This document shows, piece after piece, positions 26,666 through 48,104 of a stretch of 51,764 nt of DNA (position 1 is the stretch's first letter; the number at the start of each line of letters is the position of its first letter). A program made the position numbers and the translations under genes. Below the pieces are notes generated by a model. The model was not told the origin of the DNA and did not search any database. It was given only the letters and a program-made list of their open reading frames with translations. The DNA is from Desulfobacteraceae bacterium (lineage in GTDB: Bacteria > Desulfobacterota > Desulfobacteria > Desulfobacterales > ETH-SRB1), in contig JABZFQ010000263.1 of the NCBI GenBank assembly GCA_014237365.1, forward strand, positions 1 through 51,764, written 5' to 3'.

Positions 26666-26675
26666 TTGGCTACTT

Positions 26676-30987: not shown

Positions 30988-31065
30988 TCCGGTCGATTAT
31001 GACAGGCTGCTGACGGCGCTTTATTGTCTCAATATTGAGTTGAAAAAAAATAGAGGAGTATAAGA

Positions 31066-32691
31066 ATGCACAAGAAATTTCCACATCTTTTTGAGCCATT
31101 TAAGCTTGGTTCTGTTCGTTTAAAAAACAGAATTACCATGTCACCTCTTTTTACTGCTTCTGCCCACAAAAACGGAACTGTCAGCTCGTTGACACTGGAG
31201 CATTACAAAGAAATAGCAGAGGGCGGGGCGGGCATGATTGTAGTTGCAAATGCCATTGTTGATAAAAGCGGATCTGTATCAAAATATTCTATCAGGGTTG
31301 ATGATAACAGATTCCTGCAGGGTCTTTCCAGGCTTGCTGATACTATAAAAAAAGAGGATGCAGCGGCAGTGCTCCAGATTAATCATGGAGGATATTTTGC
31401 ACAGGGGAAAAAGACATTTTCTCCATCCTCTGTTTCCTTGAGCGATTTAAATTTAGGAGGACTGTATAAAACAGCTCTTAAATCACTTGATTTTCAGCAG
31501 CAGATAGCTGTGTTGTCAGAAGCTATACAACAACACCCTAAAAGACCAAAGAAAATGACTGAAGATGATATTAAGTACATAGTCTCAGCCTATGCTCAGG
31601 CGGCTGCACGTGCAAAAAAAGCAGGTTTTGATATGGTGGAAATTCATGGCGCAACCGGATATCTGCCTGTTCAGTTTTTATCGCCCAGAATAAACAACCG
31701 AAAAGATCAATACGGCGGTAATCTGGAGAACCGTATGCGTTTTCCTCTTGAACTTACACAAGCCGTAATGGATGCTGTTGGTTCTGATTTTCCTGTTGGA
31801 TACAGGTTTCTTGCTGAGGAATGGATAGAAGAAGGATTTTTATTGAATGAAGCAAAAATTTTTGCCCAAAGACTTTCCGCACTTAATATTGCTTATCTTT
31901 CTGTAACAGGCGGAACCTATGAATCCTTTTCCCTACCTGAAGTCAAAGAGAAATCACACGGACCAGGTTATATGGTTTATCTTGCCGGAAATATAAAAGA
32001 GGTGGTTGATGTGCCTGTAATTACTACCGGTCGTATTACTGCTCCACAGTTAGCCGAAGAGATTCTTAGTGAAAAAAAAGCGGATATTATCGGTCTTGCC
32101 CGCCCTTTGTTTGTAGATCCTAAGTGGCCAAAGAAGGCATATGAAGGTAAAGATGAAGACATAGTTCCATGTAAAAACTGCGGGGCTTGTTTCCAGCTTG
32201 TGGTATCGGATCGGCCTGCTCTCTGTACTCAGTGGGGCAAGTCAAAATTAATAAACAGAAAAAATATGATAAAAGAAATACATAATCCCCGCAAGAAAAT
32301 TTTGATTGCAATGGATGGATCGGAAAATGCCACCATGGCGGCTGCTTATACAGCAGACATGTTGGCGAACCGCACTGATGTTAGCATTACCCTTTTTCAT
32401 ATTAAAACCAATGAATCAATCAAAGACGAAAGTGGAATAAAGGAGATGATGGATATTGCGCGATCAATTTTGATAAAGGCAGGTATCCCTGAAAAGTCGA
32501 TCAATATTCAGATTCGACAAAAAAAGGCCGGTATGGGTAACGACATATTGAATGAAATAGTAGAGGCCGGCTATGGTACTGTTGTAGTAGGGCGACGAGG
32601 TGTTTCGATAGCAAATCAGCTTTTGTTTGGAAGCGTGTCAAACAAAATTGTTCAAAATACGAAAGATTGCACTGTGTGGGTAGTTGAATGA
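31066..32691 (+). CDS. Old-Yellow-Enzyme-type FMN oxidoreductase (2,4-dienoyl-CoA-reductase-like N-domain with Cys cluster) fused to a C-terminal universal stress protein domain
   Basis: LFEPFKLGSVRLKNRITMSP, INHGG, VEIHGATGYL, Cys motif CKNCGACF...C, then USP (ILIAMDGSE...VVVGRRGVS...LLFGSVSNKIVQ). Confidence 0.8.
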   Translation: MHKKFPHLFEPFKLGSVRLKNRITMSPLFTASAHKNGTVSSLTLEHYKEIAEGGAGMIVVANAIVDKSGSVSKYSIRVDDNRFLQGLSRLADTIKKEDAAAVLQINHGGYFAQGKKTFSPSSVSLSDLNLGGLYKTALKSLDFQQQIAVLSEAIQQHPKRPKKMTEDDIKYIVSAYAQAAARAKKAGFDMVEIHGATGYLPVQFLSPRINNRKDQYGGNLENRMRFPLELTQAVMDAVGSDFPVGYRFLAEEWIEEGFLLNEAKIFAQRLSALNIAYLSVTGGTYESFSLPEVKEKSHGPGYMVYLAGNIKEVVDVPVITTGRITAPQLAEEILSEKKADIIGLARPLFVDPKWPKKAYEGKDEDIVPCKNCGACFQLVVSDRPALCTQWGKSKLINRKNMIKEIHNPRKKILIAMDGSENATMAAAYTADMLANRTDVSITLFHIKTNESIKDESGIKEMMDIARSILIKAGIPEKSINIQIRQKKAGMGNDILNEIVEAGYGTVVVGRRGVSIANQLLFGSVSNKIVQNTKDCTVWVVE

Positions 32692-32714
32692 GTTCATCAG
32701 TTGCCCATAGAAAA
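32614..32714 (+). repeat. Left copy of the ~100-bp direct repeat bracketing the CRISPR-Cas island
   Basis: Aligns with 46685-46784 with 7 substitutions and 1 indel (counted by eye). Covers the last 24 codons and stop of the OYE-USP gene plus the first 6 codons of the FAD-oxidoreductase frame. Confidence 0.9.
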
Positions 32715-32778
32715 GGGCGCATAATGCCGGCAAGATATAAGATCTCACCCCACCGATACGATGGTAGAAGGAGATATT

Positions 32779-33024
32779 TTGAGAGTTAAAATTACAGCCT
32801 TAACCGAATCACCTGCTCCTATCCCGTTTAATTACAATTATGCCCTTCACTCCGCCATCTATGGTCTCATAGAAAAATCATCAGGCGAGTATTCCAGATA
32901 CCTTCATGATAAAGGCTTTATTAATGAAACAGTAAAAAGGCGATTCAAATTATTTACCTTTTCAAAGCTCTTTTTTACTATTTGGATAATGCCTGTCTTT
33001 TGGGTTAAAGTAATCCAAGGCTAA
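32779..33024 (+). pseudogene. cas6: Truncated cas6 paralog (N-terminal ~65 aa)
   Basis: LRVKITALTESPAPIPFNYNYALHSAIYGLIEKSSGEYSRYLHDKGFINETVKRRFKLFTFSKL aligns with the N-terminus of the intact Cas6 at 38379. It has the same AGGAG-5nt-TTG start context. Homology is lost after FTFSKL. Confidence 0.75.
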
Positions 33025-33100
33025 TAGCACTGGTGGAATAATGGGAAGTCATATATATAAAAACTATTATGGATAAAATTTGAAAGGATTTTGTATTATT

Positions 33101-33679
33101 ATGTATTTTGTTAATTATCGAGGGCCGTTTGGATTTATTAAACCTTGGACCGCAGTGAGAGATAGTGAAACTTTTAGCCAACAGTTTTTAACACCTTCGA
33201 TAGTGGCAGGTATTGAAAGGAAACTGTTTCCCGATCTTTTATCTGAGCCATATGACTTGTATATAATTAAAAGGCACAGGTTGTCTTACAAACAAATTTC
33301 TCATCAGCAAGAACAAATCCAGCCCAGGGGATGGAATAAAAAAAACAACTGCTTTTACAGGCCATATTCGATAATAGTTAGGGGTGTTCTTATAGAGCCT
33401 GATTTGTATCTTGGATTTGACAATGAAAAAGATGCTATACATGCTGCAAAGCAACATATATGCGTTTGCAGGAATGAAGATATTTTATTTCCCAATGAAT
33501 CAATAATTAAAATTTCTGAGGAAGACTTTGATACTCAGGAGGATATTTTTAATGGTTTTGAATTAATATTTGAACAAAACGAACAGGCCTTTTTATTAGG
33601 ATATAACCGTTTTGATGATAATAAACCTATGTATGGATGGCTTAAAATCATCGGCAACCCCGTAAAATATATATGTTGA
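33101..33679 (+). CDS. cas5: Cas5 family protein
   Basis: The N-terminus YRGPFGFIKPWTAVRDSETFSQQFLTPSIVAGIERKLF resembles the Cas5 (I-C-like) glycine/aromatic plus TPSxxxGI motif. 192 aa from ATG 33101. Overlaps the cas3 start. Confidence 0.65.
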   Translation: MYFVNYRGPFGFIKPWTAVRDSETFSQQFLTPSIVAGIERKLFPDLLSEPYDLYIIKRHRLSYKQISHQQEQIQPRGWNKKNNCFYRPYSIIVRGVLIEPDLYLGFDNEKDAIHAAKQHICVCRNEDILFPNESIIKISEEDFDTQEDIFNGFELIFEQNEQAFLLGYNRFDDNKPMYGWLKIIGNPVKYIC

Positions 33680-35841
33680 TTATGGACATTTGTCATCACA
33701 TAAAAGCAAAAGGAGCTCCTGAGTTCACAACCTTATATGATCATCTTTATCATGTTAGATTGGCAATTGAAAAATTTGCTGAATGTTTGGATTTTGATGT
33801 TGAAATTGCAAAAATAGGGGCTGTTCTCCATGATATTGGAAAAGCAAGTCCAATTTTTCAAGAAAGACTTGTATCCAAATATAGGACTGGTCAGTCAACA
33901 TTCCGCCATGAAATTGCTTCATGCTTTTTTATTTCTCTAATCAAAGAGAAACACCAACCTCAGCTAATTGAAATGGTAATTGCTCATCACAAATCAATTG
34001 AAGGGGATAAAAAACTGAAGGGGATACTTGATCTTGAAGAAAATGAAGGTGATATTTTTGAATCCCACATAAAAAACTGGGATATTTGGAAACCGGATGC
34101 CCTGAAAATACTCTCTGCCTTTGGTATTAAAACCAGAGATATTTCTTATGACGAAGCTCATGATAATTATCTTAAAGTGTTAGACTATTGCGAGAAAAGA
34201 GTTGAGGATTATGGTTATTCAAGATGGCGTGGGCTACTTATGTCTGCGGATTATTTTGCTTCTGCCCTGTCTGAATCCACAAAGAAGTATTTGAAAAATA
34301 CATTTAAAAAACCTGTCTTGAATTTTTATAATAGAAAATCAGGATTTTATCCCTTGTCGCTGAAAAAAGCTATATCTGAAAAACCACACACAATTGTTGT
34401 TGCATGTACCGGTGCAGGAAAAACAGACTATCTTTTCAGGAGATGCAAGGGACGAGTATTTTACACACTTCCGTTTCAGGCATCAATTAATGCAATGTAT
34501 CAACGGGTTAAAAATGAGTTATTACCTTCAAATCCAGACCTGGATATTCGATTGCTTCATTCTTCTTCAAAAATAGCAGTTAATGATGAATCACAAGAAG
34601 ACATCGTTTTACAACGGCTCATTGGCTCCAGTGTCAAAATTCTAACTCCCTATCAATTAGCTTCTATCATATTCGGCACAAGGGGCTTTGAATTTCAAAT
34701 TGAAGATATCAAAGGTTGTGATGTCATTCTTGATGAAATTCATACTTATACAGGTGTTTCAAAGGCAATAGCTCTGAAAATTGTGGAAGCGCTGAATTAT
34801 TTTGGCTGTCGTATCCATATTGGCACAGCTACCATGCCTTCTTCATTATATGAAAAAATTATAACATTGCTGGGGAAAAATTCTATTGAGCAGGTTTTTT
34901 TGGATAAAACAGAGCTTGAAAAATTTGATCGTCATAAACTTTTTAAGATCAATTCATGGGAGGATTCAGACCAAATAATTGCTGATGCTGTCAAAAAAAA
35001 ACAAAAAGTATTGCTTATTTGTAACCGTGTAAAATCAGCTCAAAATGTTTTAATTAGAGCAAAGAACCTATTTCCTGATATTCCATCCCTTCTTATTCAC
35101 AGCAGATTTAAACGCGGAGACAGGTATGAAAAAGAAAAGAAACTTTTAGGCGTTGATAAAAATGGACACCCAACAGGTGAATTTAACACTTCATTGGATG
35201 CTTGTATCGTGGTCTCCACACAGGTTGTTGAAGTCAGCCTGGATATCAGTTTCGATCTTATGATTACGGAAACAGCCCCTATTGATTCCTTAATTCAACG
35301 TTTTGGAAGGGTGAACAGAAAAAGATCATCATCTACTATTGGCGTTTATAAGCCAATATATTTAATCGCGCCTCCAGAAGATAAAAAAAAAGCCGCTCCT
35401 TATGATTTGGAAATATTGAAAAATAGTTTTGAAGTCCTGGAACATAATAGCATTCTCCACGAATCTGATTATCAAAAAAAGATCGATCATGTTTTTCCTG
35501 CAATATCCAGTTTAGACATAGAAACTCATACAGCATTTAAAGGAGATGGCAAATGGAATATTGAAGCGCTCACTCACAGGGACAACTCTATATTGCTCAA
35601 TCTGCTTGAAATTGACAGCGTAAACTGCATTATTGAATCTGACTGTGAAAAGTACAAAGATGCAAACTATAAGGAACAAACCCTGATAGAAATACCAGTA
35701 AGATATTATTCTATTAAAGACTTCTCCCAGTTGAATTGTGGCAGTGACCCATTTGTTATACCAGATCAAGGATACTCTGATGAAATGGGGTTGGAAATCG
35801 ACAAGGCTAAATTACATCAAACAGACTTAAATTTTATTTGA
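33673..35841 (+). CDS. cas3: Cas3 HD nuclease-helicase fusion
   Basis: HD motifs (HLYHV, LHDIGK, FRHE, AHHKS). Helicase motifs ACTGAGKTD, VILDEIH, QRFGRVNRK. Confidence 0.9.
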   Translation: MLIMDICHHIKAKGAPEFTTLYDHLYHVRLAIEKFAECLDFDVEIAKIGAVLHDIGKASPIFQERLVSKYRTGQSTFRHEIASCFFISLIKEKHQPQLIEMVIAHHKSIEGDKKLKGILDLEENEGDIFESHIKNWDIWKPDALKILSAFGIKTRDISYDEAHDNYLKVLDYCEKRVEDYGYSRWRGLLMSADYFASALSESTKKYLKNTFKKPVLNFYNRKSGFYPLSLKKAISEKPHTIVVACTGAGKTDYLFRRCKGRVFYTLPFQASINAMYQRVKNELLPSNPDLDIRLLHSSSKIAVNDESQEDIVLQRLIGSSVKILTPYQLASIIFGTRGFEFQIEDIKGCDVILDEIHTYTGVSKAIALKIVEALNYFGCRIHIGTATMPSSLYEKIITLLGKNSIEQVFLDKTELEKFDRHKLFKINSWEDSDQIIADAVKKKQKVLLICNRVKSAQNVLIRAKNLFPDIPSLLIHSRFKRGDRYEKEKKLLGVDKNGHPTGEFNTSLDACIVVSTQVVEVSLDISFDLMITETAPIDSLIQRFGRVNRKRSSSTIGVYKPIYLIAPPEDKKKAAPYDLEILKNSFEVLEHNSILHESDYQKKIDHVFPAISSLDIETHTAFKGDGKWNIEALTHRDNSILLNLLEIDSVNCIIESDCEKYKDANYKEQTLIEIPVRYYSIKDFSQLNCGSDPFVIPDQGYSDEMGLEIDKAKLHQTDLNFI

Positions 35842-35853
35842 AAAGATATTATT

Positions 35854-37251
35854 ATGATCTCAATAAATGTTGGACGCATATTTTTAAAAGCTTTTAATGA
35901 AAAGAATAATAAATCATATTCCTCCAAGGAATTTTTTGAAAAAATCTTTTTTGACCTTTTTTTTAATCATTCCAAATATATGATCTGGCCCACAAACTCG
36001 CCTTTTGTACAGATGAAAAAAGGCCAAAAAATACATCTTTTAAGCGAAGAAGAAAGACATGATAAGCTGAATGAATTTTTCGTAAAGGCAAAAACAGAAA
36101 CACCTGATTCTAGTTTTGCTATTGGATTTCCTGCTTCAGAATTAAAAGAGTTTGCAACAACATCAGGGCTTGTAAGCGACCTGGAAATTCCTGCTGATGA
36201 ATCTGATATCTATTACTCATGGATCGGATCTGGTTTAGGGCTTGGAGTCTCAGGCGGGGTGTGTATTTTCTTTACTGACCCTGAAATTTTGCTAAAAATT
36301 TTTGAAGGTTGGTATGTTTATCGACATTTCTTGAATGACGAGAGTTTAGATAAACTTGCCCCCAATAAAATAAACAGTTGGAATGGACAATGGTTAAATT
36401 ATGCTTACAGCAAAAAATATAGAGAAAATTTTGATTTTGCAAGTTTGACCAATCAACAAGTCTTTATGCAGGAAAAAAGCGGGAGTGTTATAATTGAAAC
36501 GATTAAATGGAGTAAATTATTTTTCAATATTTCTAGACAATTTTCTGATCAAACATTAATGGGGTATGTTTACAGCTTAGGACAGACAAATAAAACACTG
36601 GGTTTCTTACCATTCCATTTTAAGCAGGCACAAAAGATTAAACATTTTTACAAACTTCTTTTTGGAGAAAACAACGTAATTAAGGATAGCGCTGCATATG
36701 AGGATATATATGGTGCTCATATAAAAAGGGCTTGTGAATTAGGAGTAATAGGACTCCATGCATTACAGCCGGAAGGCTTAAAACAATATTTTGCAGAAGG
36801 GAAAAAACCTGACTTCAAAAAACCAAACATTACGCCAAAAAAGGGGGAAGATGAAAATACATATAAGGTCAGGGAAGAAAAGGCATCTTTAAAGGATAAG
36901 GAGAAAGTTATTTTATTTAGAACCTATAAAACATGGTTGGTTGCTATGATTACAAAAAACAAAGAAGAAATGATTGATTATACAAAAGACGTTGCAATCG
37001 CTCTACATTCATATAGGGCAAAAGCTACAAAGACTGTCGCAAAAAATCTTATTGAAAAGGAACTGCTTGTTGCAAAATCCAAAAAGAAATTTATAGATGC
37101 CCTGGTGGAAATCGTGAAAGATACCCCAACAGAGTATCTGGAGACCTTTAAAGAACTGAAAAATCGAGTTCACCTTATGACATCGGAGGACTTCGGATAT
37201 TTTGTTGTTCTTCTCAGATTTGATTATGCTTATGAAGAAAGAAATATTTAA
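35854..37251 (+). CDS. Candidate Cascade large subunit (Cas8-like), family not recognised
   Basis: Assigned by position between cas3 and cas7, by size (465 aa), and by a Lys-rich helical C-terminal ~100 aa. I cannot match any motif to a named Cas8 family. Confidence 0.45.
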   Translation: MISINVGRIFLKAFNEKNNKSYSSKEFFEKIFFDLFFNHSKYMIWPTNSPFVQMKKGQKIHLLSEEERHDKLNEFFVKAKTETPDSSFAIGFPASELKEFATTSGLVSDLEIPADESDIYYSWIGSGLGLGVSGGVCIFFTDPEILLKIFEGWYVYRHFLNDESLDKLAPNKINSWNGQWLNYAYSKKYRENFDFASLTNQQVFMQEKSGSVIIETIKWSKLFFNISRQFSDQTLMGYVYSLGQTNKTLGFLPFHFKQAQKIKHFYKLLFGENNVIKDSAAYEDIYGAHIKRACELGVIGLHALQPEGLKQYFAEGKKPDFKKPNITPKKGEDENTYKVREEKASLKDKEKVILFRTYKTWLVAMITKNKEEMIDYTKDVAIALHSYRAKATKTVAKNLIEKELLVAKSKKKFIDALVEIVKDTPTEYLETFKELKNRVHLMTSEDFGYFVVLLRFDYAYEERNI

Positions 37252-37272
37252 CCAATGCGTTCAGGAGAGACT

Positions 37273-38331
37273 ATGCATACTATTTATATTAGAACTTTAA
37301 AAAAAGCAGAACACACTGTTTTTTGTGTTGCAAATGGACAGAAAACCTATTTTGATCCTCAATTTAACAGATTAGTACCATACTCCAGCGGGCAACAAAT
37401 AAAACGCTCAATTATTGACAGACTATCAACAGAATTAAATGAGATTCCAGCCCCTGTAACATTTCTGTTTGATGTGACTAAAAAAAAGGAAATTACAGAA
37501 GGTGAAGTTTTCGGCACATGTGACCCTTCTAATTTTGACCAGTTGCTTGGTGGCTGGATGAAAGCCATAAAAGGCGGAAAAGAAAAAACTATAAAACGAA
37601 GAAGTCCTTTTTCCATATCTGCAATGAGAGCGCTGCATCCATTACTTGCAGGTATCAATAAAGAGGACATTACTTTTGATAGAAGTGGGCGATCAAATAA
37701 TAAAGTTATCGTAAGAGATCCTGAAGGAAATTACCTTTCTGAAGATGATATCAGAAGTCTGCTTGAGGATAAGGATAGAAGTCTGGTTCGTAAATGGATA
37801 CCAGACCACAGGACAGTTACTGGTTTATTCGTTCAGGATATTGCAATTGATTTAAGACGTTTGTTTTGTATCAGTTTAAATATTTATGAGCCGGAAATAA
37901 ACCAGCCTACTGAAAAAAAATTAAGAGAAAATGGTTGGATTGAAGCAAAAAATATTTTCGGAGATTGCCTGGTGGCACCTCCAAAAACAAGAGAAAAGCT
38001 TATTCCTGCAATTTCCAAAGCAATTATTAACTGGCAGATAACCTCAAATCAATCCAGAACATTCAGTCTCATGGAAACTCTTGCAGTTGCAGTAAGTGAT
38101 AATGCTAATAAAATTGCAAGCAGTATCCGGGGAAAATTAAGTGAAGAAAATGAAAATAGAGCTGTCCCTGTAATAGAAGAAAATTTTGACGGGGTTGATA
38201 TCTTTATCACTCTTACTGCAGGAGGCTATGTCCTCACAAAGTCAGAAAAAGCTGACGCTTTAGAATTAGCAGAACAAAATATTATAAACAAAATAAATGC
38301 CTTTGATTATGAAAACCAATTGAATGGTTAG
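37273..38331 (+). CDS. cas7: Cas7 family (Cascade backbone) protein
   Basis: PYSSGQQIKRSIIDRL and RRSPFSISAMRALHP resemble Cas7 RRM-core motifs. Start at ATG 37273 with AGGAG 5 nt upstream. Confidence 0.65.
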   Translation: MHTIYIRTLKKAEHTVFCVANGQKTYFDPQFNRLVPYSSGQQIKRSIIDRLSTELNEIPAPVTFLFDVTKKKEITEGEVFGTCDPSNFDQLLGGWMKAIKGGKEKTIKRRSPFSISAMRALHPLLAGINKEDITFDRSGRSNNKVIVRDPEGNYLSEDDIRSLLEDKDRSLVRKWIPDHRTVTGLFVQDIAIDLRRLFCISLNIYEPEINQPTEKKLRENGWIEAKNIFGDCLVAPPKTREKLIPAISKAIINWQITSNQSRTFSLMETLAVAVSDNANKIASSIRGKLSEENENRAVPVIEENFDGVDIFITLTAGGYVLTKSEKADALELAEQNIINKINAFDYENQLNG

Positions 38332-38378
38332 TTTTAAATTTAAAATATTAAATACATGATTTATTATGAGGACATATT

Positions 38379-39730: not shown

Positions 39731-40279
39731 ATGGAAAATGAAGTAAAACAACAAGAGCAGATAAAACTGCCACAGGAGTTTCAGTCTCTTATCGCCGGTT
39801 TTTTTCCTAACACAAAATATTTTGACAGCCGGTTTGATCTTTTACAGGTTCAAATTGATGAATCAAGAAGAAACCAGGAACAGATCAAGGATCAGCTTAG
39901 GGATTTTAAGGGCGATACTGATAAGCGCTTTGAGCAGGCCAAAGATCAGCTTAAGGATTTTAAGGGCGATGCTGATAAGCGCTTTGAGCAGGTGGATAAG
40001 CATTTTGAGCAGGTGGATAAGCGTTTTGAGCAGGTGGATAAGCGTTTTGAGCAGATGGATAAGCGTTTTGAGCAGGTGGATAAGCGTTTTGAGCAGGTGG
40101 ATCACAGGTTTCAGCGGCTTGAAGACAAAATAGACAATCTCATTGAACGTATTGATGTTAAGGTTGATAGCGGCTTAAAAGAAAACCGGAATCTGACTGT
40201 AAGACTTTTTACCTTTGCCCTCTCTTTTTCTCTTGTTGCTGTAGTTGGGATGTTTGGAAAACTTTTTGGGTTGTTTTAG
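39731..40279 (+). CDS. Tail-anchored coiled-coil protein with DKRFEQV heptad tandem repeats
   Basis: Two 18-aa repeats (KDQL[RK]DFKGD[TA]DKRFEQ[AV]). Six to seven DKRFEQV heptads. C-terminal hydrophobic helix LFTFALSFSLVAVVGMFGKLFGLF. Confidence 0.7.
   Translation: MENEVKQQEQIKLPQEFQSLIAGFFPNTKYFDSRFDLLQVQIDESRRNQEQIKDQLRDFKGDTDKRFEQAKDQLKDFKGDADKRFEQVDKHFEQVDKRFEQVDKRFEQMDKRFEQVDKRFEQVDHRFQRLEDKIDNLIERIDVKVDSGLKENRNLTVRLFTFALSFSLVAVVGMFGKLFGLF
39887..40120 (+). repeat. In-frame tandem repeats: 2 x 54 bp then 6-7 x 21 bp
   Basis: 21-bp units GATAAGCGTTTTGAGCAGGTG start at 39974, 39995, 40016, 40037, 40058 and 40079, with a degenerate unit at 40100. Confidence 0.9.
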
Positions 40280-40306
40280 GCGCTGGTAGGAAAAAATTAT
40301 TAGTTA

Positions 40307-40419
40307 GGAACGTGGACGAAATAACTTCCCCAAGTAGGCGCACAGATTTGGGTCGAATTTGTTTGATCTCAGATCACAAAAGTTGATGGAATAGCTTACC
40401 TATTTCAATATTTTTGGGA
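40307..40419 (+). mobile_element. MITE-A copy 10, truncated after ~113 bp
   Basis: TTA then GGAACGTGGACGAAATAACTTCCCCAAGTAGGCGCACAG... through ...CAATATTTTTGGGA. Confidence 0.85.
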
Positions 40420-40486
40420 GTCTTGTTCATTGATTTTAAGGAAGCATTTGACAACACTACCCGTATTTTTGAAGGAAATAGCTGAT

Positions 40487-41710
40487 ATGGACAAAATAGA
40501 ACTTTTAAAACTTATTAACAAAGGCGAATCCAGCTTTGTGGAATTCAAAGCAGATACACCGGATATTAAAGCGGAAACAATTGGGGAGTATGTTGTCTGT
40601 TTTGCAAATTCAAAGGGCGGAAAAATTCTGCTCGGCGTCGAAGATGACGGAACAATAACAGGACTGAAAGGCAGGTTTTCCGAATACGGTAAATGGATAT
40701 CAGACGCTGTTCAGGGCTGGGCACATCCAAATATTATTGTTGATTATGAGGAGGTGCCTGTAGAAGAAGATTTGCGGGTTGCCGTGATTACTGTGCCGAT
40801 GAGTGTCGCCAAGCCGTATTCCAAACGCAAGGGGAAGGATGCAAAGGAGCGTTACTATATTCGCGATGTCACCAGTTGTCGGGAAACAGATAGAGAAGAA
40901 CTAAGGCGTTTATTTCAAAGCTCAGGGATGATTCATTTTGAGGTGACGCCTGTGCCAAGGTCAAAACCGGAAGATTTGAATGAAACGCTGCTTGTGGAGT
41001 ATTTCAGGCGGGTCAGAGATATCGGTTATGACGATAAGCCAAAATGGCTTCGGCTTTTAATTGACAATCAGATACTTTCTGAAGAACTTGGTGCTGTTAA
41101 TTGTACTCTGGCAGGGCTTATTTTATTCGGCAAAAAGGATAGAGTTAAAAAATTAATTCCTCAAAGCGGTATTAGTGCTGTAGAATATGACTCTCCTGAT
41201 GCGGATGTGGCGGGTCGTTTTCGCAAAGAAATCAATGGACCCCTGATTTCGTTGCGTGAAAACTCGGGAGTTATTGCTGAAGAAGGCATAATTGACCAGG
41301 CTGTAAATTTCGTTTTAAGGGTACGGTCAAAAGAAAAAATTGAAGGTACAAGACGCGTGACTGAATATGCTTATCCCCCTGAGGTTCTGCGTGAAGCCAT
41401 TGTTAATGCCGTTGCCCACAGAGATTATACCATCGGTGGAACAAATATCGGCCTTTGGCTCTATCCTGACCGGTTTGAAATCGATAGTCCGGGCAATCTT
41501 CCAAACACTATCACAATAGAACGGATGAAAAGCGGCGCCCGCTATCACCGCAATCAAACGATTGTTGATTACCTGCGCGACATGAATTTTATCGAAGGCA
41601 GTGGCAGGGGTGTATCACGCAAAATCATCCGCGGTATGATTGAGCATAATGGCAAAGAGCCGGACTTTGAGCTAAGGGGCGAAGCATTAAGAGTTACTTT
41701 ATATGCTTAA
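40487..41710 (+). CDS. AlbA_2 (Schlafen-type) plus HATPase_c_4 domain protein (RecG-like putative DNA-binding regulator)
   Basis: Start MDKIELLKLINKGESSFVEFK, ...CFANSKGGKILLGVEDDGTITG (AlbA_2 signature). C-terminal EAIVNAVAHRDY...EIDSPGNLP...RNQTIVDYL (HATPase_c_4-like). Confidence 0.7.
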   Translation: MDKIELLKLINKGESSFVEFKADTPDIKAETIGEYVVCFANSKGGKILLGVEDDGTITGLKGRFSEYGKWISDAVQGWAHPNIIVDYEEVPVEEDLRVAVITVPMSVAKPYSKRKGKDAKERYYIRDVTSCRETDREELRRLFQSSGMIHFEVTPVPRSKPEDLNETLLVEYFRRVRDIGYDDKPKWLRLLIDNQILSEELGAVNCTLAGLILFGKKDRVKKLIPQSGISAVEYDSPDADVAGRFRKEINGPLISLRENSGVIAEEGIIDQAVNFVLRVRSKEKIEGTRRVTEYAYPPEVLREAIVNAVAHRDYTIGGTNIGLWLYPDRFEIDSPGNLPNTITIERMKSGARYHRNQTIVDYLRDMNFIEGSGRGVSRKIIRGMIEHNGKEPDFELRGEALRVTLYA

Positions 41711-41717
41711 AAATATT

Positions 41718-41950
41718 GTAACCGTTCACGGTTGTTGGTTCACAGTTCACAGTTTTTTCAATGAACTATGCAATGATTGAAGCATTTGCCTGGTTCCCAT
41801 GCTCCTGCGTGGGAACCCTCGCAGTATGCATTCCCACGCAGGAGCTATGGGAACGAAAAAGAAGATTCCCTGCACAGCACAGGCTACGGGCAATGCGCTC
41901 GCTATTGCGGTTCAACCGTGAACCGATAACTGTAAACCGTGAACGGTTAC
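41718..41950. repeat. Composite palindromic element: heptamer-repeat outer arms plus an inner 22-bp inverted repeat
   Basis: Outer arms gtaaccgttcacggttgttggttcacagttcacagtt / ggttcaaccgtgaaccgataactgtaaaccgtgaacggttac. Inner TTCCCATGCTCCTGCGTGGGAA (41794-41815) faces TTCCCACGCAGGAGCTATGGGAA (41831-41853). Confidence 0.8.
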
Positions 41951-41973
41951 AAAATATTTATGGACATTAGGTT

Positions 41974-42468
41974 ATGCAAAACCTGAATTTTACCGGCACC
42001 CAGATAAACTACTATTTTGTATGTCATCGCAAACTCTGGCTGTTTACAAAAGATATAAGATTTGAGGACGAAAACGAATATGTGCAATTGGGGCGGCTCA
42101 TTGATGAAAATACCTATAAGCGGAATAAAAAGCAGATTGAGATCGGCAAAATTAAAATTGATTTCATTGATAACAATGGCGTGATCCATGAAATTAAAAA
42201 ATCGAATAAAATTGAAAAGGCCCATATTCACCAGGTGAAATATTACATCCTTACATTAAAGAGAATGGGAGTTGAAAATATCACAGGTGAAATTGATTAT
42301 CCAAAACTGAAGAAAAGGGAAACGGTATTGCTGACGCCTGAGGATGAAAAGGAATTCGAAAAGATTTTTTCAGATATTCGGGAAATTCTGGATAAACCAA
42401 AACCGCCTGCTATAATTAAAAAAACTATATGCAAGAAATGTGCTTACTTTGAATTCTGCTTTGCATAA
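41974..42468 (+). CDS. cas4: Cas4 (RecB-like exonuclease with Fe-S Cys cluster)
   Basis: 164 aa. N-terminal YYFVCHRKLW and C-terminal CKKCAYFEFC cysteines. DxK-type core (IDF...HEIKKS). Confidence 0.85.
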   Translation: MQNLNFTGTQINYYFVCHRKLWLFTKDIRFEDENEYVQLGRLIDENTYKRNKKQIEIGKIKIDFIDNNGVIHEIKKSNKIEKAHIHQVKYYILTLKRMGVENITGEIDYPKLKKRETVLLTPEDEKEFEKIFSDIREILDKPKPPAIIKKTICKKCAYFEFCFA

Positions 42469-42485
42469 CCTGTATAAGGAATAAC

Positions 42486-43475
42486 ATGAAACAATCTTTA
42501 TATCTTTTTTCAAATTGTACGATTAAAAGGAAAGACAACACCCTGATGTTTGATATCGACGGAACAAAAAAATTCCGTCCTGTTGAAGCGGTTTCTGATA
42601 TTTTTCTTTTTGGTGAACATACCCTTAATACAAAGTTGCTGAATTTTTTGGGACAGCAGAAAATTCCTGTTCACATATTTAATTATTACGGATTTTACTC
42701 TGGTTCTTTTTTCCCAAGAGAACAATATCTTTCGGGACATGTCACAATCAGCCAGGCAAAGCATTATCTTGATAAGAAAAAAAGAATGCTTTTAGCCTAT
42801 GAATTTTTGAATGCAGCAGCTTCAAACATTCTTACAAACCTGACATATTACAATAACAGAGGAAGGAATGTCGGTGAAAAGATTCTGCAGGTAAAAGAAT
42901 TGAAAAAATCATTAAAAGCAGCAGATTCAATCTCATATTTAATGGGCATCGAAGGAAATATCAGGGAGTTGTATTATTCTGCTTTTAACGAAATTGTTCA
43001 AAATAAAATCGAATTTGAAAAACGTGTTAAAAGACCTCCTGACAATTTTATCAATTCACTGATTTCCTTTGGTAATTCCCTTATTTACACATCAATTCTG
43101 TCTGAAATTTACAGAACCCAGCTTAATCCTACTGTCAGTTTTCTCCATGAACCAGGATACAGGCGTTATTCCCTCGCGCTTGATATATCGGAAATTTTCA
43201 AACCTATCATCCTTGACAGAATGATCTTCACCATGATCAATAAAAATGAGTTGACTGAAAAAGATACGGAAAAAGACCTTAACTACTGCTATTTGAAAGA
43301 TAAAGGCAGGAAGAACTTTTTAAGAAAATATGATGAAAGGCTGAAAACAACTGTTAAACATAAAAATCTTAATCGGCATGTTTCTTACAAAAGACTTATC
43401 CGGCTTGAGTGTTATAAAATCGTTAAACATATTATTGGTGAAGAAAAATACACAGGGTTTAAGATGTGGTGGTAA
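42486..43475 (+). CDS. cas1: Cas1 integrase
   Basis: 329 aa with a typical I-B-like Cas1 layout (two-domain, ...GIEGN...LNPTVSFLHEPG...SLALDISEIFKP). Confidence 0.9.
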   Translation: MKQSLYLFSNCTIKRKDNTLMFDIDGTKKFRPVEAVSDIFLFGEHTLNTKLLNFLGQQKIPVHIFNYYGFYSGSFFPREQYLSGHVTISQAKHYLDKKKRMLLAYEFLNAAASNILTNLTYYNNRGRNVGEKILQVKELKKSLKAADSISYLMGIEGNIRELYYSAFNEIVQNKIEFEKRVKRPPDNFINSLISFGNSLIYTSILSEIYRTQLNPTVSFLHEPGYRRYSLALDISEIFKPIILDRMIFTMINKNELTEKDTEKDLNYCYLKDKGRKNFLRKYDERLKTTVKHKNLNRHVSYKRLIRLECYKIVKHIIGEEKYTGFKMWW

Positions 43476-43477
43476 TC

Positions 43478-43759
43478 ATGTATGTGATCGCAATGTACGA
43501 CATAAATACGGAAACAAAGGCTGGCAGGAGGAGGTTAAGGCAAATTTTTAAATTAATGAAAAAATATCTTATCCGAATTCAGAATTCTGTCTTTGAAGGA
43601 GAAATTACCAAAGCCAAATTTGAAGAAATGAAGTTAAAAGTTAACGATCTTATTGATAATACTATTGATTCAGTTATATTTTTCAAAAGTCGTGACATTA
43701 AATGGATGGATAAAGACATATGCGGCTTTGAAAAAGATGATACTGATAACTTTTTATGA
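43478..43759 (+). CDS. cas2: Cas2
   Basis: MYVIAMYDI...RIQNSVFEGEIT ferredoxin-like Cas2 pattern. The tracked ORF begins at GTG 43466, overlapping the cas1 stop. Confidence 0.88.
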   Translation: MYVIAMYDINTETKAGRRRLRQIFKLMKKYLIRIQNSVFEGEITKAKFEEMKLKVNDLIDNTIDSVIFFKSRDIKWMDKDICGFEKDDTDNFL

Positions 43760-43889
43760 AATATCTGCTCTTTGACAATTTGTAAAAAAACCGTCAATCT
43801 CCCTATGATTTTACATCATTGCAGGTTGACGGAAAAAACAGTTTGATTTATTAATGTAACTTATTATTTTTATATTATTTATTGGATGG
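43760..43889 (+). promoter_or_regulatory. CRISPR leader (AT-rich)
   Basis: 130 bp between the cas2 stop and the first repeat. Contains the inverted repeat ccgtcaa...ttgacgg and an A/T-rich repeat-proximal stretch. The degenerate repeat is at the opposite end of the array. Confidence 0.65.
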
Positions 43890-46685
43890 CTTTTAATCAG
43901 ACCAGAATGGAATTGAAACGAAAATTAATTTCAAGACTAAGTTCATTTGGCATCCGCTTTTAATCAGACCAGAATGGAATTGAAACTATAGTTTGTGCGA
44001 GCTGGATGAGAAATCAAAAGTCTTTTAATCAGACCAGAATGGAATTGAAACAATTTTATTTTGTATTGTTTTTTTTGTACGGTTAACTTTTAATCAGACC
44101 AGAATGGAATTGAAACATAATCAAGTCGATGTTCAGGAAGGTCATGTTGCCCCTTTTAATCAGACCAGAATGGAATTGAAACCCGATATGACGAGAACAA
44201 AGAAGCATTACATAGCGACTTTTAATCAGACCAGAATGGAATTGAAACATCACACAAAAATACCAGCCTGCAATTCGATCCAGCTTTTAATCAGACCAGA
44301 ATGGAATTGAAACGGCGGAGAATCCTTCCGATCAAACTGGGGCGGGGATCTTTTAATCAGACCAGAATGGAATTGAAACAAAATATAGAGCCAGATATCT
44401 GTCTGAATTTAAACTCTTTTAATCAGACCAGAATGGAATTGAAACTGATTTATTGCCGGCCTCCATTTCTGCATTAAGCTCCTTTTAATCAGACCAGAAT
44501 GGAATTGAAACCTGGGAACGGCAAATAAGAACGCCGTACACAGAGCTCTTTTAATCAGACCAGAATGGAATTGAAACTTATCTGCATCATCTCGAATCCT
44601 ATTATGCTTTATGCTTTTAATCAGACCAGAATGGAATTGAAACTCTTGTGTCCCAGTGGAAAACTGCTGCTTCGCCTGTCTTTTAATCAGACCAGAATGG
44701 AATTGAAACGATGAATTTTTTTATATCCTGCTTTTCTTCTTCATCCTTTTAATCAGACCAGAATGGAATTGAAACCACGTTTAGCGGGGTATACAGGTAC
44801 AGACAGAACGTCTTTTAATCAGACCAGAATGGAATTGAAACGTGTTCGACTTCCCAGACTTGTTTCAGTTCAGTGTGCTTTTAATCAGACCAGAATGGAA
44901 TTGAAACTCGAGCTCCCTTTGTCCTCACGATTGGCGCTCCCACTTTTAATCAGACCAGAATGGAATTGAAACGCTGGCACTCCTTGCAGTCGCTCTCGAA
45001 GAGCGTGCCTTTTAATCAGACCAGAATGGAATTGAAACCGCTCACTGTAAAGATTTCCGACACTGTCAGCGTTGCTTTTAATCAGACCAGAATGGAATTG
45101 AAACTCGAGCTCAAAAATGGTAAAGGTGCCTGGACTCTGACTTTTAATCAGACCAGAATGGAATTGAAACTTGGTCCATTAATAATAGGCGTAGCTTTTT
45201 TAGCATCTTTTAATCAGACCAGAATGGAATTGAAACTCGAAAGCACCCCCTGACACAATCATTTCGCTAATTCTTTTAATCAGACCAGAATGGAATTGAA
45301 ACAAATGGTGCTCCCGTTCGAGCTTGATATCCCTGCCCCTTTTAATCAGACCAGAATGGAATTGAAACACCCATTTATTCTTTTCAGAAGATTCAGAAGA
45401 TAACTTTTAATCAGACCAGAATGGAATTGAAACAAACCCGCCAGCGCCGGCAAGGGAAAACAACAAACACTTTTAATCAGACCAGAATGGAATTGAAACA
45501 GAGATCGCTTCTGAGGGCTTTTCTTTCTTTTCGACTTTTAATCAGACCAGAATGGAATTGAAACTATCCCATGGCTTTTTCACTAACGACAAAGCCTGAC
45601 TTTTAATCAGACCAGAATGGAATTGAAACATCGCAAATGACGCAGCTATGATTATTTGCGCTCTCCTTTTAATCAGACCAGAATGGAATTGAAACAGGCT
45701 AAACGAAACACGGATCCAGTTTGGTTACGGCTTTTAATCAGACCAGAATGGAATTGAAACGCATTTCGACACCCCATGTCGGTTTTCTTTACACCTCCTT
45801 TTAATCAGACCAGAATGGAATTGAAACCGGCCTTGTTTTACGCAGGCTCTCGTTAGGAGCTCGCTTTTAATCAGACCAGAATGGAATTGAAACCCGTGAA
45901 AATGACGCTTTCCCCCTCCTCTGAGTACTCTTTTAATCAGACCAGAATGGAATTGAAACGTCGCTCGTAATAAGCCCGCTCGTCTGCACACCATTCTTTT
46001 AATCAGACCAGAATGGAATTGAAACTTTTTTGTCTCCTTTTTTAGGTTGTTTTTTATCTGCTTTTAATCAGACCAGAATGGAATTGAAACTAGCTGTGAG
46101 TTTATTGTAGCTGTTTTATTGAGCGCCTTTTAATCAGACCAGAATGGAATTGAAACCGACGACTCTATGAGCGACTAACAGATCGCAAATTACTTTTAAT
46201 CAGACCAGAATGGAATTGAAACCAAATTGTCAGCGAATTGTGGCTGATAATCATTAAACTTTTAATCAGACCAGAATGGAATTGAAACCGTTAAACCTAA
46301 CTGCCTGGTTTTAATGATGATCAGCTTTTAATCAGACCAGAATGGAATTGAAACAGCTCGGTCGCCTTGGATAGATCAAGTTGTGCCTGACTTTTAATCA
46401 GACCAGAATGGAATTGAAACAGGAACGCAAATAGTATAAAATCGAGGTATTTACCTTCTTTTAATCAGACCAGAATGGAATTGAAACTTAGCCCAAAGCT
46501 GAAAGTGGCTACAAGTGGAGGAGCTTTTAATCAGACCAGAATGGAATTGAAACAACCTTCTTCTGTGATCCTGAGATACCCTCGAACATCTTTTAATCAG
46601 ACCAGAATGGAATTGAAACCGGGGAACGACCTCGGCAGGTATTGGCGTTTGGACGCTTTTAATCAGGCCAGAATGGAAGAGCATA
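43890..46685 (+). CRISPR. CRISPR array: 43 repeats of 30 bp (CTTTTAATCAGACCAGAATGGAATTGAAAC), 42 spacers of 35-37 bp
   Basis: Each repeat start was located by hand (43890, 43957, 44022 ... 46590). The terminal repeat at 46656 is degenerate (CTTTTAATCAGGCCAGAATGGAAGAGCATA). The repeat ends in ATTGAAAC, the classical Cas6-generated 8-nt handle. Confidence 0.97.
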
Positions 46686-46784
46686 TCAGGTTTTGTTTGG
46701 AAGTGTATCAAACAAAATCGTTCAAAATACGAAAGATTGCACTGTGTGGGTGGTTGAATGAGCTCATCTGTTGCCATAGAAAAG
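46685..46784 (+). repeat. Right copy of the ~100-bp direct repeat bracketing the CRISPR-Cas island
   Basis: See 32614-32714. Contains an orphan copy of the USP C-terminal coding sequence (QVLFGSVSNKIVQNTKDCTVWVVE*) and the genuine start of the FAD-oxidoreductase gene. Confidence 0.9.
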
Positions 46785-48041: not shown

Positions 48042-48104
48042 AACTGAAAAGTGGTCAAACATTTTTTTTGACCGGATATACGGGATGATGAGTAAGGATT
48101 ATTT

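What the first reader, a model, noticed from the sequence alone, without database searches (positions are those of the whole stretch)
32614..46784. The entire CRISPR-Cas island is bracketed by ~100-bp direct repeats that duplicate a gene-gene junction and differ mainly by synonymous changes
Seen in the sequence: 32614-32714 and 46685-46784 align over ~100 nt with 7 substitutions and 1 indel. The repeat covers the last 24 codons and stop of the OYE-USP gene plus the ATGA-overlapping first 6 codons of the FAD-oxidoreductase gene. In the USP frame, 4 of 5 substitutions are synonymous (agc/agt, gtg/gta, att/atc, gta/gtg) and one is conservative (L/V). In the FAD-gene frame both substitutions are synonymous (agt/agc, tca/tct). 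Copy A completes an intact OYE-USP gene, and copy B supplies the real start of the FAD gene. The degenerate terminal CRISPR repeat abuts copy B directly. Inference: the two housekeeping genes were once adjacent and overlapping, and ~14 kb of cas genes plus array arrived between them. The second junction copy appears to have evolved as coding sequence elsewhere. That pattern fits an integrative element carrying the 3' end of its target, or homology-facilitated recombination with a diverged allele. No integrase or transposase is visible inside the island.
Basis: seen in the sequence. Interest (0 to 1): 0.82.

Follow-up and report, generated by a model that had tools for sequence, protein, structure and literature searches.

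The report
CRISPR-Cas cassette flanked by duplicated gene junction
A 14-kb CRISPR-Cas immune gene cassette with no mobility genes of its own was inserted exactly where two normally overlapping housekeeping genes meet, and a 105-base duplication of that junction keeps both genes whole; one copy comes from a different bacterial lineage, so recombination, not a dedicated integration enzyme, most likely did the work.

Summary
Copy A (32610-32715) and copy B (46680-46784) are sharply bounded direct repeats with 8 substitutions and 1 indel. They bracket a 13,964-bp type I-B CRISPR-Cas cassette that has no integrase, transposase, terminal inverted repeats or tRNA target.

Sixteen related metagenome-assembled genome (MAG) and metagenome loci have the empty site, with OYE-USP overlapping the FAD gene by ATGA.

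I first thought the repeat differences were in-situ decay, but this is refuted. Copy B carries a natural allele found in intact junctions of another lineage. It differs from L030 at 1 site and from L010 at 2 sites per 100 nt, against 5-8 for other relatives.

A second MAG of that lineage (L032) has a remnant of the same CRISPR repeat 23 nt upstream of its FAD start, at a different junction.

The closest known phenomenon is "insertion with long target duplication", described for restriction-modification systems. The difference here is that the two copies are heteroallelic.

The best reading is integrase-free acquisition: illegitimate joining plus homologous recombination with a diverged allele. 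An integrase-type element is not supported. Whether copy B arrived with the cassette or was converted later is not resolved.

This is a new member of a known kind, of moderate interest.

The parts
31066..32691 (+). OYE-USP gene (Oxidored_FMN + Usp, 541 aa). It is intact, and its last 26 codons lie in copy A.
   Evidence: Pfam PF00724 + PF00582. Orthologues of 79-94% identity in L001-L016.
32610..32715 (+). Copy A of the junction repeat (106 nt): USP codons -26 to stop, then a non-functional FAD stub of 9 codons frameshifted by an extra C at 32706. It carries the common (non-L010) allele plus private changes at 32637, 32649 and 32706.
32716..32753 (+). 38-nt filler of unknown origin between copy A and the point where homology with sister cassettes begins.
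   Evidence: No match in the window or in any fetched locus. Homology to L018 and L021 starts at about 32754.
32761..33024 (+). cas6 N-terminal pseudogene fragment, probably starting at the TTG at 32779. It is a conserved left-end feature of this cassette family.
   Evidence: PF21350 Cas6_I-A. The same fragment is in L018 and L021/L022 at 89-100% aa identity.
33080..39176 (+). Type I-B effector genes: cas5b 33080-33679, cas3b 33673-35841, cas8b 35854-37251, cas7b 37255-38331, cas6b 38379-39176.
   Evidence: PADLOC Cas5b/Cas3b/Cas8b/Cas7b/Cas6b with E-values from 1e-56 to 1e-300. Pfam and NCBIfam.
39177..41973 (+). Variable cargo slot: a coiled-coil membrane-anchored protein (39707-40279, with 21-nt tandem repeats), a copy of the interspersed MITE-like repeat (about 40301-40457), and an AlbA_2/HATPase_c_4 (Schlafen-like) gene (40430-41710).
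   Evidence: The AlbA gene is 96% identical in L025 and is also present in L033.
41974..43759 (+). Adaptation genes: cas4 41974-42468, cas1b 42486-43475, cas2 43466-43759.
   Evidence: NCBIfam TIGR03641 cas1_HMARI at 4e-136 and TIGR00372 cas4. PADLOC Cas4b and Cas2b.
43890..46678 (+). CRISPR array: 42 full 30-nt repeats (CTTTTAATCAGACCAGAATGGAATTGAAAC) and 42 spacers of 35-37 nt. It ends in a 23-nt truncated terminal repeat (46656-46678, A12G). The leader lies on the cas2 side.
   Evidence: No spacer is shared with L018 or L021, and no spacer matches the window itself.
46680..46784 (+). Copy B of the junction repeat (105 nt): a non-functional USP stub of 26 codons plus stop, carrying the L010/L030-type allele, followed by the real start and native upstream region of the FAD gene.
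46758..48041 (+). FAD-type (GxGxxG) oxidoreductase-like gene, 427 aa, intact. It has no Pfam or NCBIfam hit. In all relatives its ATG overlaps the USP stop.

Best explanation
A 13,964-bp type I-B CRISPR-Cas cassette (cas6 fragment, cas5-3-8-7-6, cargo slot, cas4-1-2, 42-spacer array) entered the 4-nt overlap between OYE-USP and a FAD-type gene. It did so by host recombination, not by a dedicated recombinase.

Shown:
- The pre-insertion state was the two genes overlapping.
- The insert is bounded by two illegitimate junctions. One is FAD codon 9 joined to 38 nt of filler. The other is nt 23 of the terminal CRISPR repeat joined to USP codon -26.
- These junctions lie 105 nt apart on the target, so the junction is duplicated and both genes stay intact.
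- The array-proximal copy B is an allele of another lineage (L010/L030 type). Copy A and both outer flanks are of the common type.

Inferred:
- The right junction (array joined to the USP stub) formed in an L010-type chromosome.
- The cassette then entered the present lineage on a DNA fragment that carried this stub and part of the FAD gene.
- The fragment was anchored on the right by homologous recombination in the stub or FAD region.
- It was joined on the left illegitimately at FAD codon 9 of the recipient. This is homology-facilitated illegitimate recombination, equivalent to a Campbell-type crossover at the right edge of the 105-nt homology.
- That leaves the recipient's own junction as copy A and the donor's as copy B.
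- Selection keeps the product, because any insertion without a duplication at an overlapping gene pair would destroy one gene. Copy B also preserves the native ribosome-binding region of the FAD gene, which is now fed by read-through from the array.
- The 92%-identical repeats (longest exact block 32 nt) would allow rare scarless loss.
For: Empty sites: 16 related loci have the uninterrupted ATGA junction.

Foreign allele in copy B:
- B differs from L030 and L010 at 1-2 sites per 100 nt, against 5-8 for all others. Copy A is 89% identical to L010 over the 150-column alignment block that includes it.
- L010-exclusive sites: 4 in 105 nt in B against 8 in 2,900 nt elsewhere, P = 2e-4.
- These variants sit in intact genes of L010 and L030.

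Illegitimate, sharply bounded junctions: there is no decayed extension of homology and there are no terminal inverted repeats. The overlap at the right junction is 1 nt.

No mobility genes. No tRNA lies at the site.

The cassette is mobile as a unit. Sister cassettes (cas8 82-92% identical) lie at unrelated loci next to housekeeping genes.

Donor-lineage link:
- MAG GCA_030666665.1 has an L010-type FAD gene (98%).
- In that MAG a remnant of the same CRISPR repeat lies 23 nt upstream of the FAD start (L032).
- The same MAG holds a cassette of the same family on another contig (L025).

Precedent: integrase-free insertions of defence genes with target duplications of more than 30 bp and up to about 400 bp. 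These duplications often span start or stop codons so that the target genes stay intact (PMC2853133).
Against: - The L010-type signal is clear only inside copy B. In the next 300 nt of the FAD gene no allele type is favoured. The homologous anchor predicted by the model is therefore not demonstrated.
- No genome was found with the same right junction. L032 has a different junction: a full repeat, 6 nt, then USP codon -5.
- No donor context for the 38-nt filler was found.
- Microhomology at the left junction cannot be assessed, and at the right junction it is only 1 nt.
- The population is highly mosaic, so later conversion of one flank is a live alternative.
- The window is a single MAG contig and no reads were available.
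Confidence: 0.45

Rival explanations
1. In-situ 'insertion with long target duplication', followed by independent allelic replacement. The cassette was captured in one step at a staggered break or by replication template switching, which gave two identical 105-nt copies. Later, ordinary homologous recombination with DNA from empty-site strains replaced one flank up to the edge of homology, so the copies now carry different natural alleles.
For: - The flanking genes are strongly mosaic among relatives, showing frequent recombination.
- Long donor fragments would pair up to the heterology border. An allele switch exactly at the cassette border is therefore the expected outcome.
- All differences are natural-allele or synonymous differences.
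- Published restriction-modification cases show one-step long target duplications without mobility genes (PMC2853133).
- The L010-type tract is not detectably longer than copy B.
Against: - L010-type sites reach to 5 nt from the left edge of copy B (46684). If A was the converted copy, non-L010 sites reach to 16 nt from its right edge. Either way a conversion endpoint must lie in the last few paired bases.
- It does not explain why a second L010-type genome (L032) also has this CRISPR family next to its FAD gene.
- In the published cases the two copies resemble each other more than they resemble the empty site. Here it is the reverse.
Confidence: 0.3
2. A site-specific integrative element. The 105-nt repeats are attL and attR of an element that targets the 3' end of OYE-USP and carries a replacement gene end, as e14 and phage 21 do at icd (recalled from my own knowledge). 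Its integrase has since been lost.
For: - Direct repeats made of a gene's 3' end, with mostly synonymous differences, and the target gene kept intact.
- A 32-nt block of perfect identity could serve as a crossover core.
Against: - No integrase, excisionase or transposase anywhere in the 14 kb.
- The right repeat is fused directly to a truncated CRISPR repeat, and the left repeat is 38 nt from conserved cassette sequence. That leaves no room for att arms or an int gene, and makes a deletion ending exactly at both att sites implausible.
- Sister cassettes are at unrelated sites without these repeats.
- Copy B is L010-type on both sides of the putative core. A crossover within the core predicts otherwise.
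- Nothing was found in viral contigs.
Confidence: 0.06
3. An assembly or binning artefact. The contig is a chimera of co-occurring strains, and the duplicated junction does not exist on one molecule.
For: - The window is an entire contig of a metagenome-assembled genome.
- The two copies carry alleles of two lineages.
- Related populations are mosaic.
Against: - Both junctions are novel joins with no shared k-mer that could mislead a de Bruijn assembler. The overlap is 1 nt at the right junction, and the left junction leads into unique filler.
- The longest identical block between the copies is 32 nt, shorter than the final k values of the common metagenome assemblers as I recall them.
- A strain switch inside the cassette would still require both strains to carry the cassette at this site.
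Confidence: 0.05
4. An old in-situ duplication whose copies diverged by mutation. Purifying selection acted on the functional halves and drift on the stubs.
For: With only the first seven relatives as outgroup, the pattern fitted. A-lineage changes were synonymous plus a frameshift in the dead stub. B-lineage changes were 2 nonsynonymous plus 2 synonymous in the dead stub and synonymous in the live FAD start.
Against: Five of copy B's six distinguishing variants occur together in the intact junctions of L010 and L030. Independent mutation cannot produce that (P = 2e-4).
Confidence: 0.02

Closest known systems
Insertion with long target duplication of restriction-modification systems (Nobusato et al. 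2000, Gene 259:99; Furuta, Abe & Kobayashi 2010, NAR, PMC2853133)
   Same: - A defence gene cassette of less than 20 kb.
- No integrase or transposase.
- Flanked by direct repeats longer than 30 bp that occur once at the empty site of related genomes.
- The repeat spans a stop and a start codon, so the target genes stay intact.
- The repeats could support amplification or excision.
   Different: - The cargo is a complete type I-B CRISPR-Cas locus. No such case was found in the paper library.
- The two copies are heteroallelic. Each is closer to some empty-site allele (B to L030: 1 difference) than to the other copy (8 differences plus 1 indel). In the published tables the copies are usually closest to each other.
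- One end of the insert is a truncated CRISPR repeat.
Homology-facilitated illegitimate recombination in natural transformation (de Vries & Wackernagel 2002; recalled from my own knowledge, cited indirectly hits)
   Same: - Foreign DNA is integrated with one homologous anchor and one illegitimate joint close to the anchor.
- No element-encoded enzymes are needed.
- It explains a donor-type allele adjacent to the insert on one side only.
   Different: - The classical products carry 3-10-nt microhomology and usually delete recipient DNA. Here the result is a 105-nt duplication, with 1 nt of microhomology at the one junction that can be read.
- The anchor tract beyond copy B is not demonstrable.
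- Competence of this organism is unknown.
Integrative elements that carry a substitute 3' gene end (e14 and phage 21 at icd; tRNA-targeting islands)
   Same: - Direct repeats consisting of the 3' end of the target gene.
- The differences are mostly synonymous.
- The target gene is reconstituted.
   Different: - No integrase.
- There are no att arms.
- The repeat is fused to a CRISPR repeat.
- Sister cassettes use other sites.
- The allele pattern does not fit a crossover at a core.
Transposon-borne CRISPR-Cas (Tn7-like CASTs) and casposons
   Same: CRISPR-related genes that move between genomic sites and are flanked by target duplications.
   Different: Those elements have short duplications (5 bp or about 14-15 bp), terminal inverted repeats, and Tns or casposase/PolB genes. 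None of these is present here.

Membership tests
Insertion with long target duplication (criteria of Furuta et al. 2010, PMC2853133) | The inserted segment is under 20 kb and consists of defence genes without other mobile-element genes. | tested here: met
   The insert is 13,964 nt. All assigned genes are cas or defence-type cargo. There is no integrase or transposase.
Insertion with long target duplication (criteria of Furuta et al. 2010, PMC2853133) | Flanking direct repeats longer than 30 bp. | tested here: met
   105/106 nt at 92% identity.
Insertion with long target duplication (criteria of Furuta et al. 2010, PMC2853133) | The repeat sequence is present once at an empty site in a related genome, with homology on both sides. 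| tested here: met
   16 empty-site loci.
Insertion with long target duplication (criteria of Furuta et al. 2010, PMC2853133) | The repeat is not a tRNA or att-type site-specific target. | tested here: met
   The only tRNA in the window is at 22453-22528. The repeat is protein-coding junction sequence.
Insertion with long target duplication (criteria of Furuta et al. 2010, PMC2853133) | The two copies derive from one target, so they should be at least as similar to each other as to the empty site. | tested here: not met
   A and B differ by 8 substitutions plus 1 indel. B differs from L030 by 1 and from L010 by 2. A lacks the L010-type sites. A recombination step must therefore be added.
Integrase-mediated integrative element | A tyrosine or serine recombinase gene next to one att site. 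| tested here: not met
   None found by Pfam, NCBIfam, PADLOC or the ORF scan. 38 nt and 0 nt of non-cassette DNA lie between the repeats and the cassette.
Integrase-mediated integrative element | An excised circular form with one hybrid repeat. | not testable with these tools
   No reads were available. The junction pattern is absent from viral contigs.
Homology-facilitated illegitimate recombination | A donor-type allele continuous from the insert into the anchoring flank. | tested here: inconclusive
   Copy B is L010/L030-type. The following 300 nt do not discriminate between allele types.
Homology-facilitated illegitimate recombination | An illegitimate joint at short microhomology near the anchor. 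| tested here: inconclusive
   The left joint is 105 nt from the start of the stub, but the donor sequence is unknown. The right joint has a 1-nt overlap.
Type I-B CRISPR-Cas | cas8b, cas7b, cas5b, cas3, cas6b, cas4, cas1b and cas2, plus an array whose repeat ends in ATTGAAAC. | tested here: met
   PADLOC I-B models with E-values from 1e-30 to 1e-300. cas1_HMARI at 4e-136. Array of 42+1 repeats. The gene order cas5-cas3-cas8-cas7-cas6 is shared by all sister cassettes.
Transposon-borne CRISPR-Cas or casposon | Terminal inverted repeats, a short fixed-length target duplication, and transposase or casposase genes. | tested here: not met
   The TIR alignment scores below the shuffle mean. The duplication is 105 nt. 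No tns or polB genes are present.

The most novel reading that the evidence does not exclude
This I-B cassette family may behave as an integrase-free, homology-hitchhiking mobile unit.
- Once inserted with a long target duplication, it can loop out by recombination between the repeats, taking one copy of the host junction with it.
- It can then re-enter any related genome by Campbell-type or one-ended homologous recombination at that junction.
- This would make the OYE-USP/FAD overlap a recurrent docking site. Two different array-to-FAD junctions are seen in two lineages: the window and L032.
- It would also leave heteroallelic repeats as a footprint of each transfer.
- If so, it would extend Kobayashi's proposed 'life cycle' of restriction-modification cassettes to CRISPR-Cas and give a general route for defence-island spread without mobility genes.
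Probability: 0.2. Interest if true: 0.7.

Novelty: new member of a known kind. Interest (0 to 1): 0.5.

Why it matters
How complete CRISPR-Cas loci move between genomes when they are not on plasmids, phages or transposons is poorly documented. This locus offers an unusually clean case:
- a known pre-insertion state, seen at 16 empty sites;
- both junctions readable to the nucleotide;
- no mobility genes;
- a duplicated target whose two copies can be assigned to different lineages.

It suggests that the integrase-free 'insertion with long target duplication' route, described for restriction-modification systems, also carries CRISPR-Cas. It also suggests that homologous recombination with diverged alleles takes part in the spread of such cassettes or follows it. 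In practice, heteroallelic long repeats that bracket defence genes could serve as a search signature for recombination-driven defence-island transfer in MAG collections.

Tried and rejected
1. In-situ divergence of an old duplication. It fitted the first seven outgroups but was rejected once L010 and L030 showed copy B's variants in intact junctions.
2. Decayed longer duplication. The continuation of copy A against the FAD gene, and the upstream of copy B against USP, align no better than shuffles.
3. Terminal inverted repeats at the cassette ends. None found.
4. Origin of the 38-nt filler. No match in the window or in 37 loci.
5. Self-targeting or shared spacers that might explain the join or date the array. 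None found.
6. The cassette or its right junction on viral contigs. None found.
7. Exact-protein look-ups of the window's OYE-USP and FAD proteins. Not on record. The nearest FAD homologue is 89% identical, so no same-species genome is available.
8. C-terminally truncated OYE-USP proteins, which would indicate a simple disruptive insertion in a donor. All 514-517-aa hits are alternative-start calls with intact C-termini.
9. Flanking repeats around the sister cassette in Ca. Desulfarcum (L033). The array runs off the fetched locus, so this is untestable.
10. Promoter and terminator scans around both junctions. Uninformative.
11. Use of cas-gene identities to pick the donor cassette. They are mosaic, with no clear nearest relative.

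Full report
**What is there**

The window is an entire 51,764-bp contig of an NCBI MAG labelled Desulfobacteraceae bacterium.

The region around the finding contains, in order:
- **31066-32691:** an intact OYE-USP fusion gene (Oxidored_FMN + Usp).
- **46758-48041:** an intact 427-aa gene with a GxGxxG N-terminus and no Pfam or NCBIfam hit.
- **Between them:** a complete type I-B CRISPR-Cas locus.
  - a cas6 N-terminal pseudogene fragment (32761-33024);
  - cas5b, cas3b, cas8b, cas7b, cas6b (33080-39176);
  - a cargo slot with a coiled-coil protein, a MITE-like repeat and an AlbA_2/HATPase_c_4 gene (39177-41973);
  - cas4, cas1b, cas2 (41974-43759);
  - an array of 42 full repeats plus one truncated repeat (43890-46678).

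These assignments rest. No integrase or transposase is present, including among ORFs of at least 30 aa in the unassigned part. The only tRNA in the window is 10 kb away.

**Check of the observation**

The direct repeat is real. Copy A is 32610-32715 and copy B is 46680-46784, at 92% identity over 96 gapless nt. There are 8 substitutions and one extra C in A.

The repeat covers the last 26 codons and stop of OYE-USP and the first 9 codons of the FAD gene.

In the USP frame 4 of 6 substitutions are synonymous, and the others are N/Y and L/V. The probability of that by chance is 0.02. Both substitutions in the FAD frame are synonymous.

Homology stops sharply at both ends. The last CRISPR repeat matches the consensus for only 23 nt and runs into USP-homologous sequence with a 1-nt overlap.

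**Empty sites**

One scan each of genome and metagenome contigs with OYE-USP, plus one context look-up, gave 16 related loci at 79-94% aa identity. In every one OYE-USP overlaps the FAD gene by ATGA with nothing between. None has the cassette. The nearest host relative is only about 94% identical in protein sequence. No same-species genome exists in the collections.

**Origin of the differences between the copies**

With the first seven relatives as outgroup, the pattern looked like in-situ divergence. Changes in the functional halves were synonymous. The dead stubs carried a frameshift and two nonsynonymous changes.

The metagenome loci overturned this. L010 and L030 are intact empty sites of another lineage, and they carry five of copy B's six distinguishing variants together.
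- Copy B differs from L030 at 1 site and from L010 at 2 sites per 100 nt, against 5-8 for all other relatives.
- Copy A is 89% identical to L010 over the alignment block that includes it.
- Sites shared only with L010 number 4 in the 105 nt of copy B against 8 in the other 2,900 nt compared (P = 2e-4).

Copy A is the common allele with three private changes.

Beyond copy B, the next 300 nt of the FAD gene do not favour any allele type.

**The cassette elsewhere**

Cas8b homologues of 82-92% identity mark sister cassettes. They share the same repeat and the same gene order, cas5-cas3-cas8-cas7-cas6-[variable]-cas4-cas1-cas2.
- They sit next to unrelated genes: DUF1016-like, radical SAM, PNPOx.
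- None has mobility genes.
- L018 and L021/L022 share the cas6 fragment. Their homology with the window begins at about 32754.
- That leaves 38 nt (32716-32753) of unknown origin next to copy A.
- No spacers are shared.

**A second genome with this CRISPR family next to the FAD gene**

L032 is contig 136 of MAG GCA_030666665.1. Its FAD protein is in the same 90%-identity cluster as P0126, which is 98% identical to L010's FAD protein.

L032 reads, from its start:
- a MITE end;
- 26 nt of the same CRISPR repeat, with one mismatch and an intact 3' end;
- 6 nt of unassigned sequence;
- about 17 nt of USP 3' end;
- the FAD gene.

The same MAG holds a decayed cassette of the family on contig 23 (L025). 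This junction differs from the window's. It arose either independently or by a later deletion. Either way it links the cassette family, this docking site and the L010-type lineage.

A weaker lead is L031, a 1,435-nt contig from a study that also yielded the sister cassette L018. It begins exactly at the first base of the stub. It carries a mosaic allele: common type on the left and L010 type on the right, as an A-by-B recombinant would. A SNP-induced graph break explains that start equally well.

**Mechanism**

A site-specific integrative element is not supported.
- There is no recombinase.
- There is no room for att arms.
- The right repeat is fused to a truncated CRISPR repeat.
- Sister cassettes use other sites.
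- Copy B is L010-type on both sides of the only long identity block.

A transposon is excluded, because there are no terminal inverted repeats or transposase genes and the duplication is 105 nt.

The structure needs two illegitimate joints 105 nt apart on the target, plus a recombination step that brings in a diverged allele.

I favour co-transfer (0.45). Under this model the array-to-stub joint formed in an L010-type chromosome. The cassette then entered the present lineage anchored by homology in the stub or FAD region. Its left end was joined illegitimately at FAD codon 9.

The main rival (0.30) is a one-step in-situ long target duplication, followed by homologous replacement of one flank up to the border of homology. 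That is plausible in this very mosaic population.

The data do not separate the two models. The anchor tract cannot be seen and the donor junction was not found.

An assembly artefact is unlikely (0.05). Both joins lack shared k-mers, and the copies share at most 32 identical nt.

**Why the duplication persists (inference)**

The two genes overlap, so there is no neutral insertion point. Only an insertion that duplicates the junction keeps both genes intact. Copy B also keeps the native 78 nt upstream of the FAD start. No terminator-like site lies between the array and the FAD gene, so read-through from the array could express it. The repeats would allow rare scarless loss of the cassette.

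**Comparison with what is known**

The pattern matches 'insertion with long target duplication', described for all types of restriction-modification systems.
- Inserts are under 20 kb and have no mobility genes.
- Repeats range from more than 30 bp to about 400 bp and occur once at empty sites.
- The repeats often span start or stop codons so that the targets stay intact (PMC2853133; also PMC3457768).

The 25 best-ranked of the 32 library papers that use the term list no CRISPR-Cas case.

Two things differ here: the cargo is CRISPR-Cas, and the repeat copies are heteroallelic. That second feature fails the expectation of a simple one-target duplication and points to recombination with a diverged allele.

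**Verdict**

The integrase-type mechanism is not supported.

This is a new member of a known kind. Interest is moderate (0.5): it is a clean, nucleotide-resolved example of integrase-free CRISPR-Cas acquisition, and the remaining questions can be answered with reads and a few more genomes.

Noticed in passing
window 1477-1633, 2562-2718, 2703-2859, 17778-17973, 18723-18814, 20418-20574, 22787-22885, 29525-29602, 30838-30994, 40301-40457; also L009, L012, L031, L032: A MITE-like interspersed repeat of about 115-157 nt, with the end motif TTAGGAACGTGGACGAAATAACTTCCCCAA. It occurs at least 10 times in 52 kb, in both orientations. One copy is inside the cassette and one is 70 nt upstream of OYE-USP. 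The family is shared with related lineages (100% over 35 nt in L032), and in L032 it has inserted into a CRISPR repeat.
   Followed up: partly
L032:1-80 (MAG GCA_030666665.1, contig DAOUXI010000136): A remnant of the same CRISPR repeat family lies 23 nt upstream of the FAD start codon in a second genome with an L010-type FAD gene. The junction differs from the window's: a full repeat 3' end, 6 nt, then USP codon -5. The site may be a recurrent docking site, or the junction may derive from a window-like one by deletion.
   Followed up: partly
L031:1-110 (ENA ERZ23498528, ZHAN22-2 study): This 1,435-nt contig starts exactly at the first base of the USP stub (AGCAAATCAG) and ends in a MITE. Its junction allele is mosaic: common type on the left and L010 type on the right, as expected for a recombinant between copies A and B. 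It could mark structural heterogeneity at the stub boundary or just a SNP-induced graph break.
   Followed up: partly
window 32761-33024; L018:538-789; L021:1024-1137 and 1391-1453: A cas6 N-terminal pseudogene fragment, about 55% identical to the functional cas6 in the same operon. It is conserved at the left end of several sister cassettes. In L021/L022 it is itself split by an insertion of about 250 nt. L027 and L028 lack it.
   Followed up: partly
window 39177-41973; L018:7294-8530; L021:8320-10314; L025:7571-8794; L028:6763-7773; L033:13744-14967: The slot between cas6 and cas4 holds different cargo in each sister cassette.
- AlbA_2/HATPase_c_4 (Schlafen-like): the window, L025 and L033.
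- DUF3800: L018.
- AAA_14/DUF4143: L021.
- SocA_Panacea: L028.
This looks like a hot spot for accessory defence genes inside a I-B operon.
   Followed up: no
window 39610-39666 and 40419-40475: A 57-nt direct repeat (88%) brackets the coiled-coil gene (39707-40279, with seven 21-nt tandem units at 39953-40141) plus the MITE copy. The second copy lies just upstream of the probable AlbA start. It may be a smaller insertion with target duplication inside the cassette. L028 has one homologous copy.
   Followed up: partly
window 48041-48105 versus L002:12894-14645, L015:3070-8674, L009:7351-10269, L012:7167-10274: The spacer between the FAD gene and the M48 peptidase gene is 64 nt in the window but 1.7-5.6 kb in relatives. 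In L015 the inserted DNA includes an AlbA_2-like gene on the opposite strand, and L001 and L003 have the same gene just downstream of their FAD genes. This is a second variable spot immediately downstream of the FAD gene.
   Followed up: no
window 23018-31065 versus 5 kb upstream of OYE-USP in L002, L003, L006, L013, L016: Synteny upstream of OYE-USP is not conserved. The window has RecD2-like helicase, Lon and MFS genes there. Several relatives instead share another block that is absent from the window. The OYE-USP/FAD pair therefore sits between variable regions on both sides.
   Followed up: partly
window 9000-16800: An 8-kb segment has about 47-52% G+C against about 37% elsewhere. It encodes a TonB-dependent receptor, a hybrid histidine kinase (CHASE8-HAMP-HisKA-HATPase-REC-REC-Hpt) and a REC-PAS-GGDEF-EAL protein. 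It may have been acquired horizontally.
   Followed up: no
window 32688-32786: The dead FAD start in copy A still overlaps the USP stop (ATGA). After the frameshift it opens a reading frame of about 32 codons that ends inside the cas6 fragment. Translational coupling could produce a short junk peptide (read).
   Followed up: no
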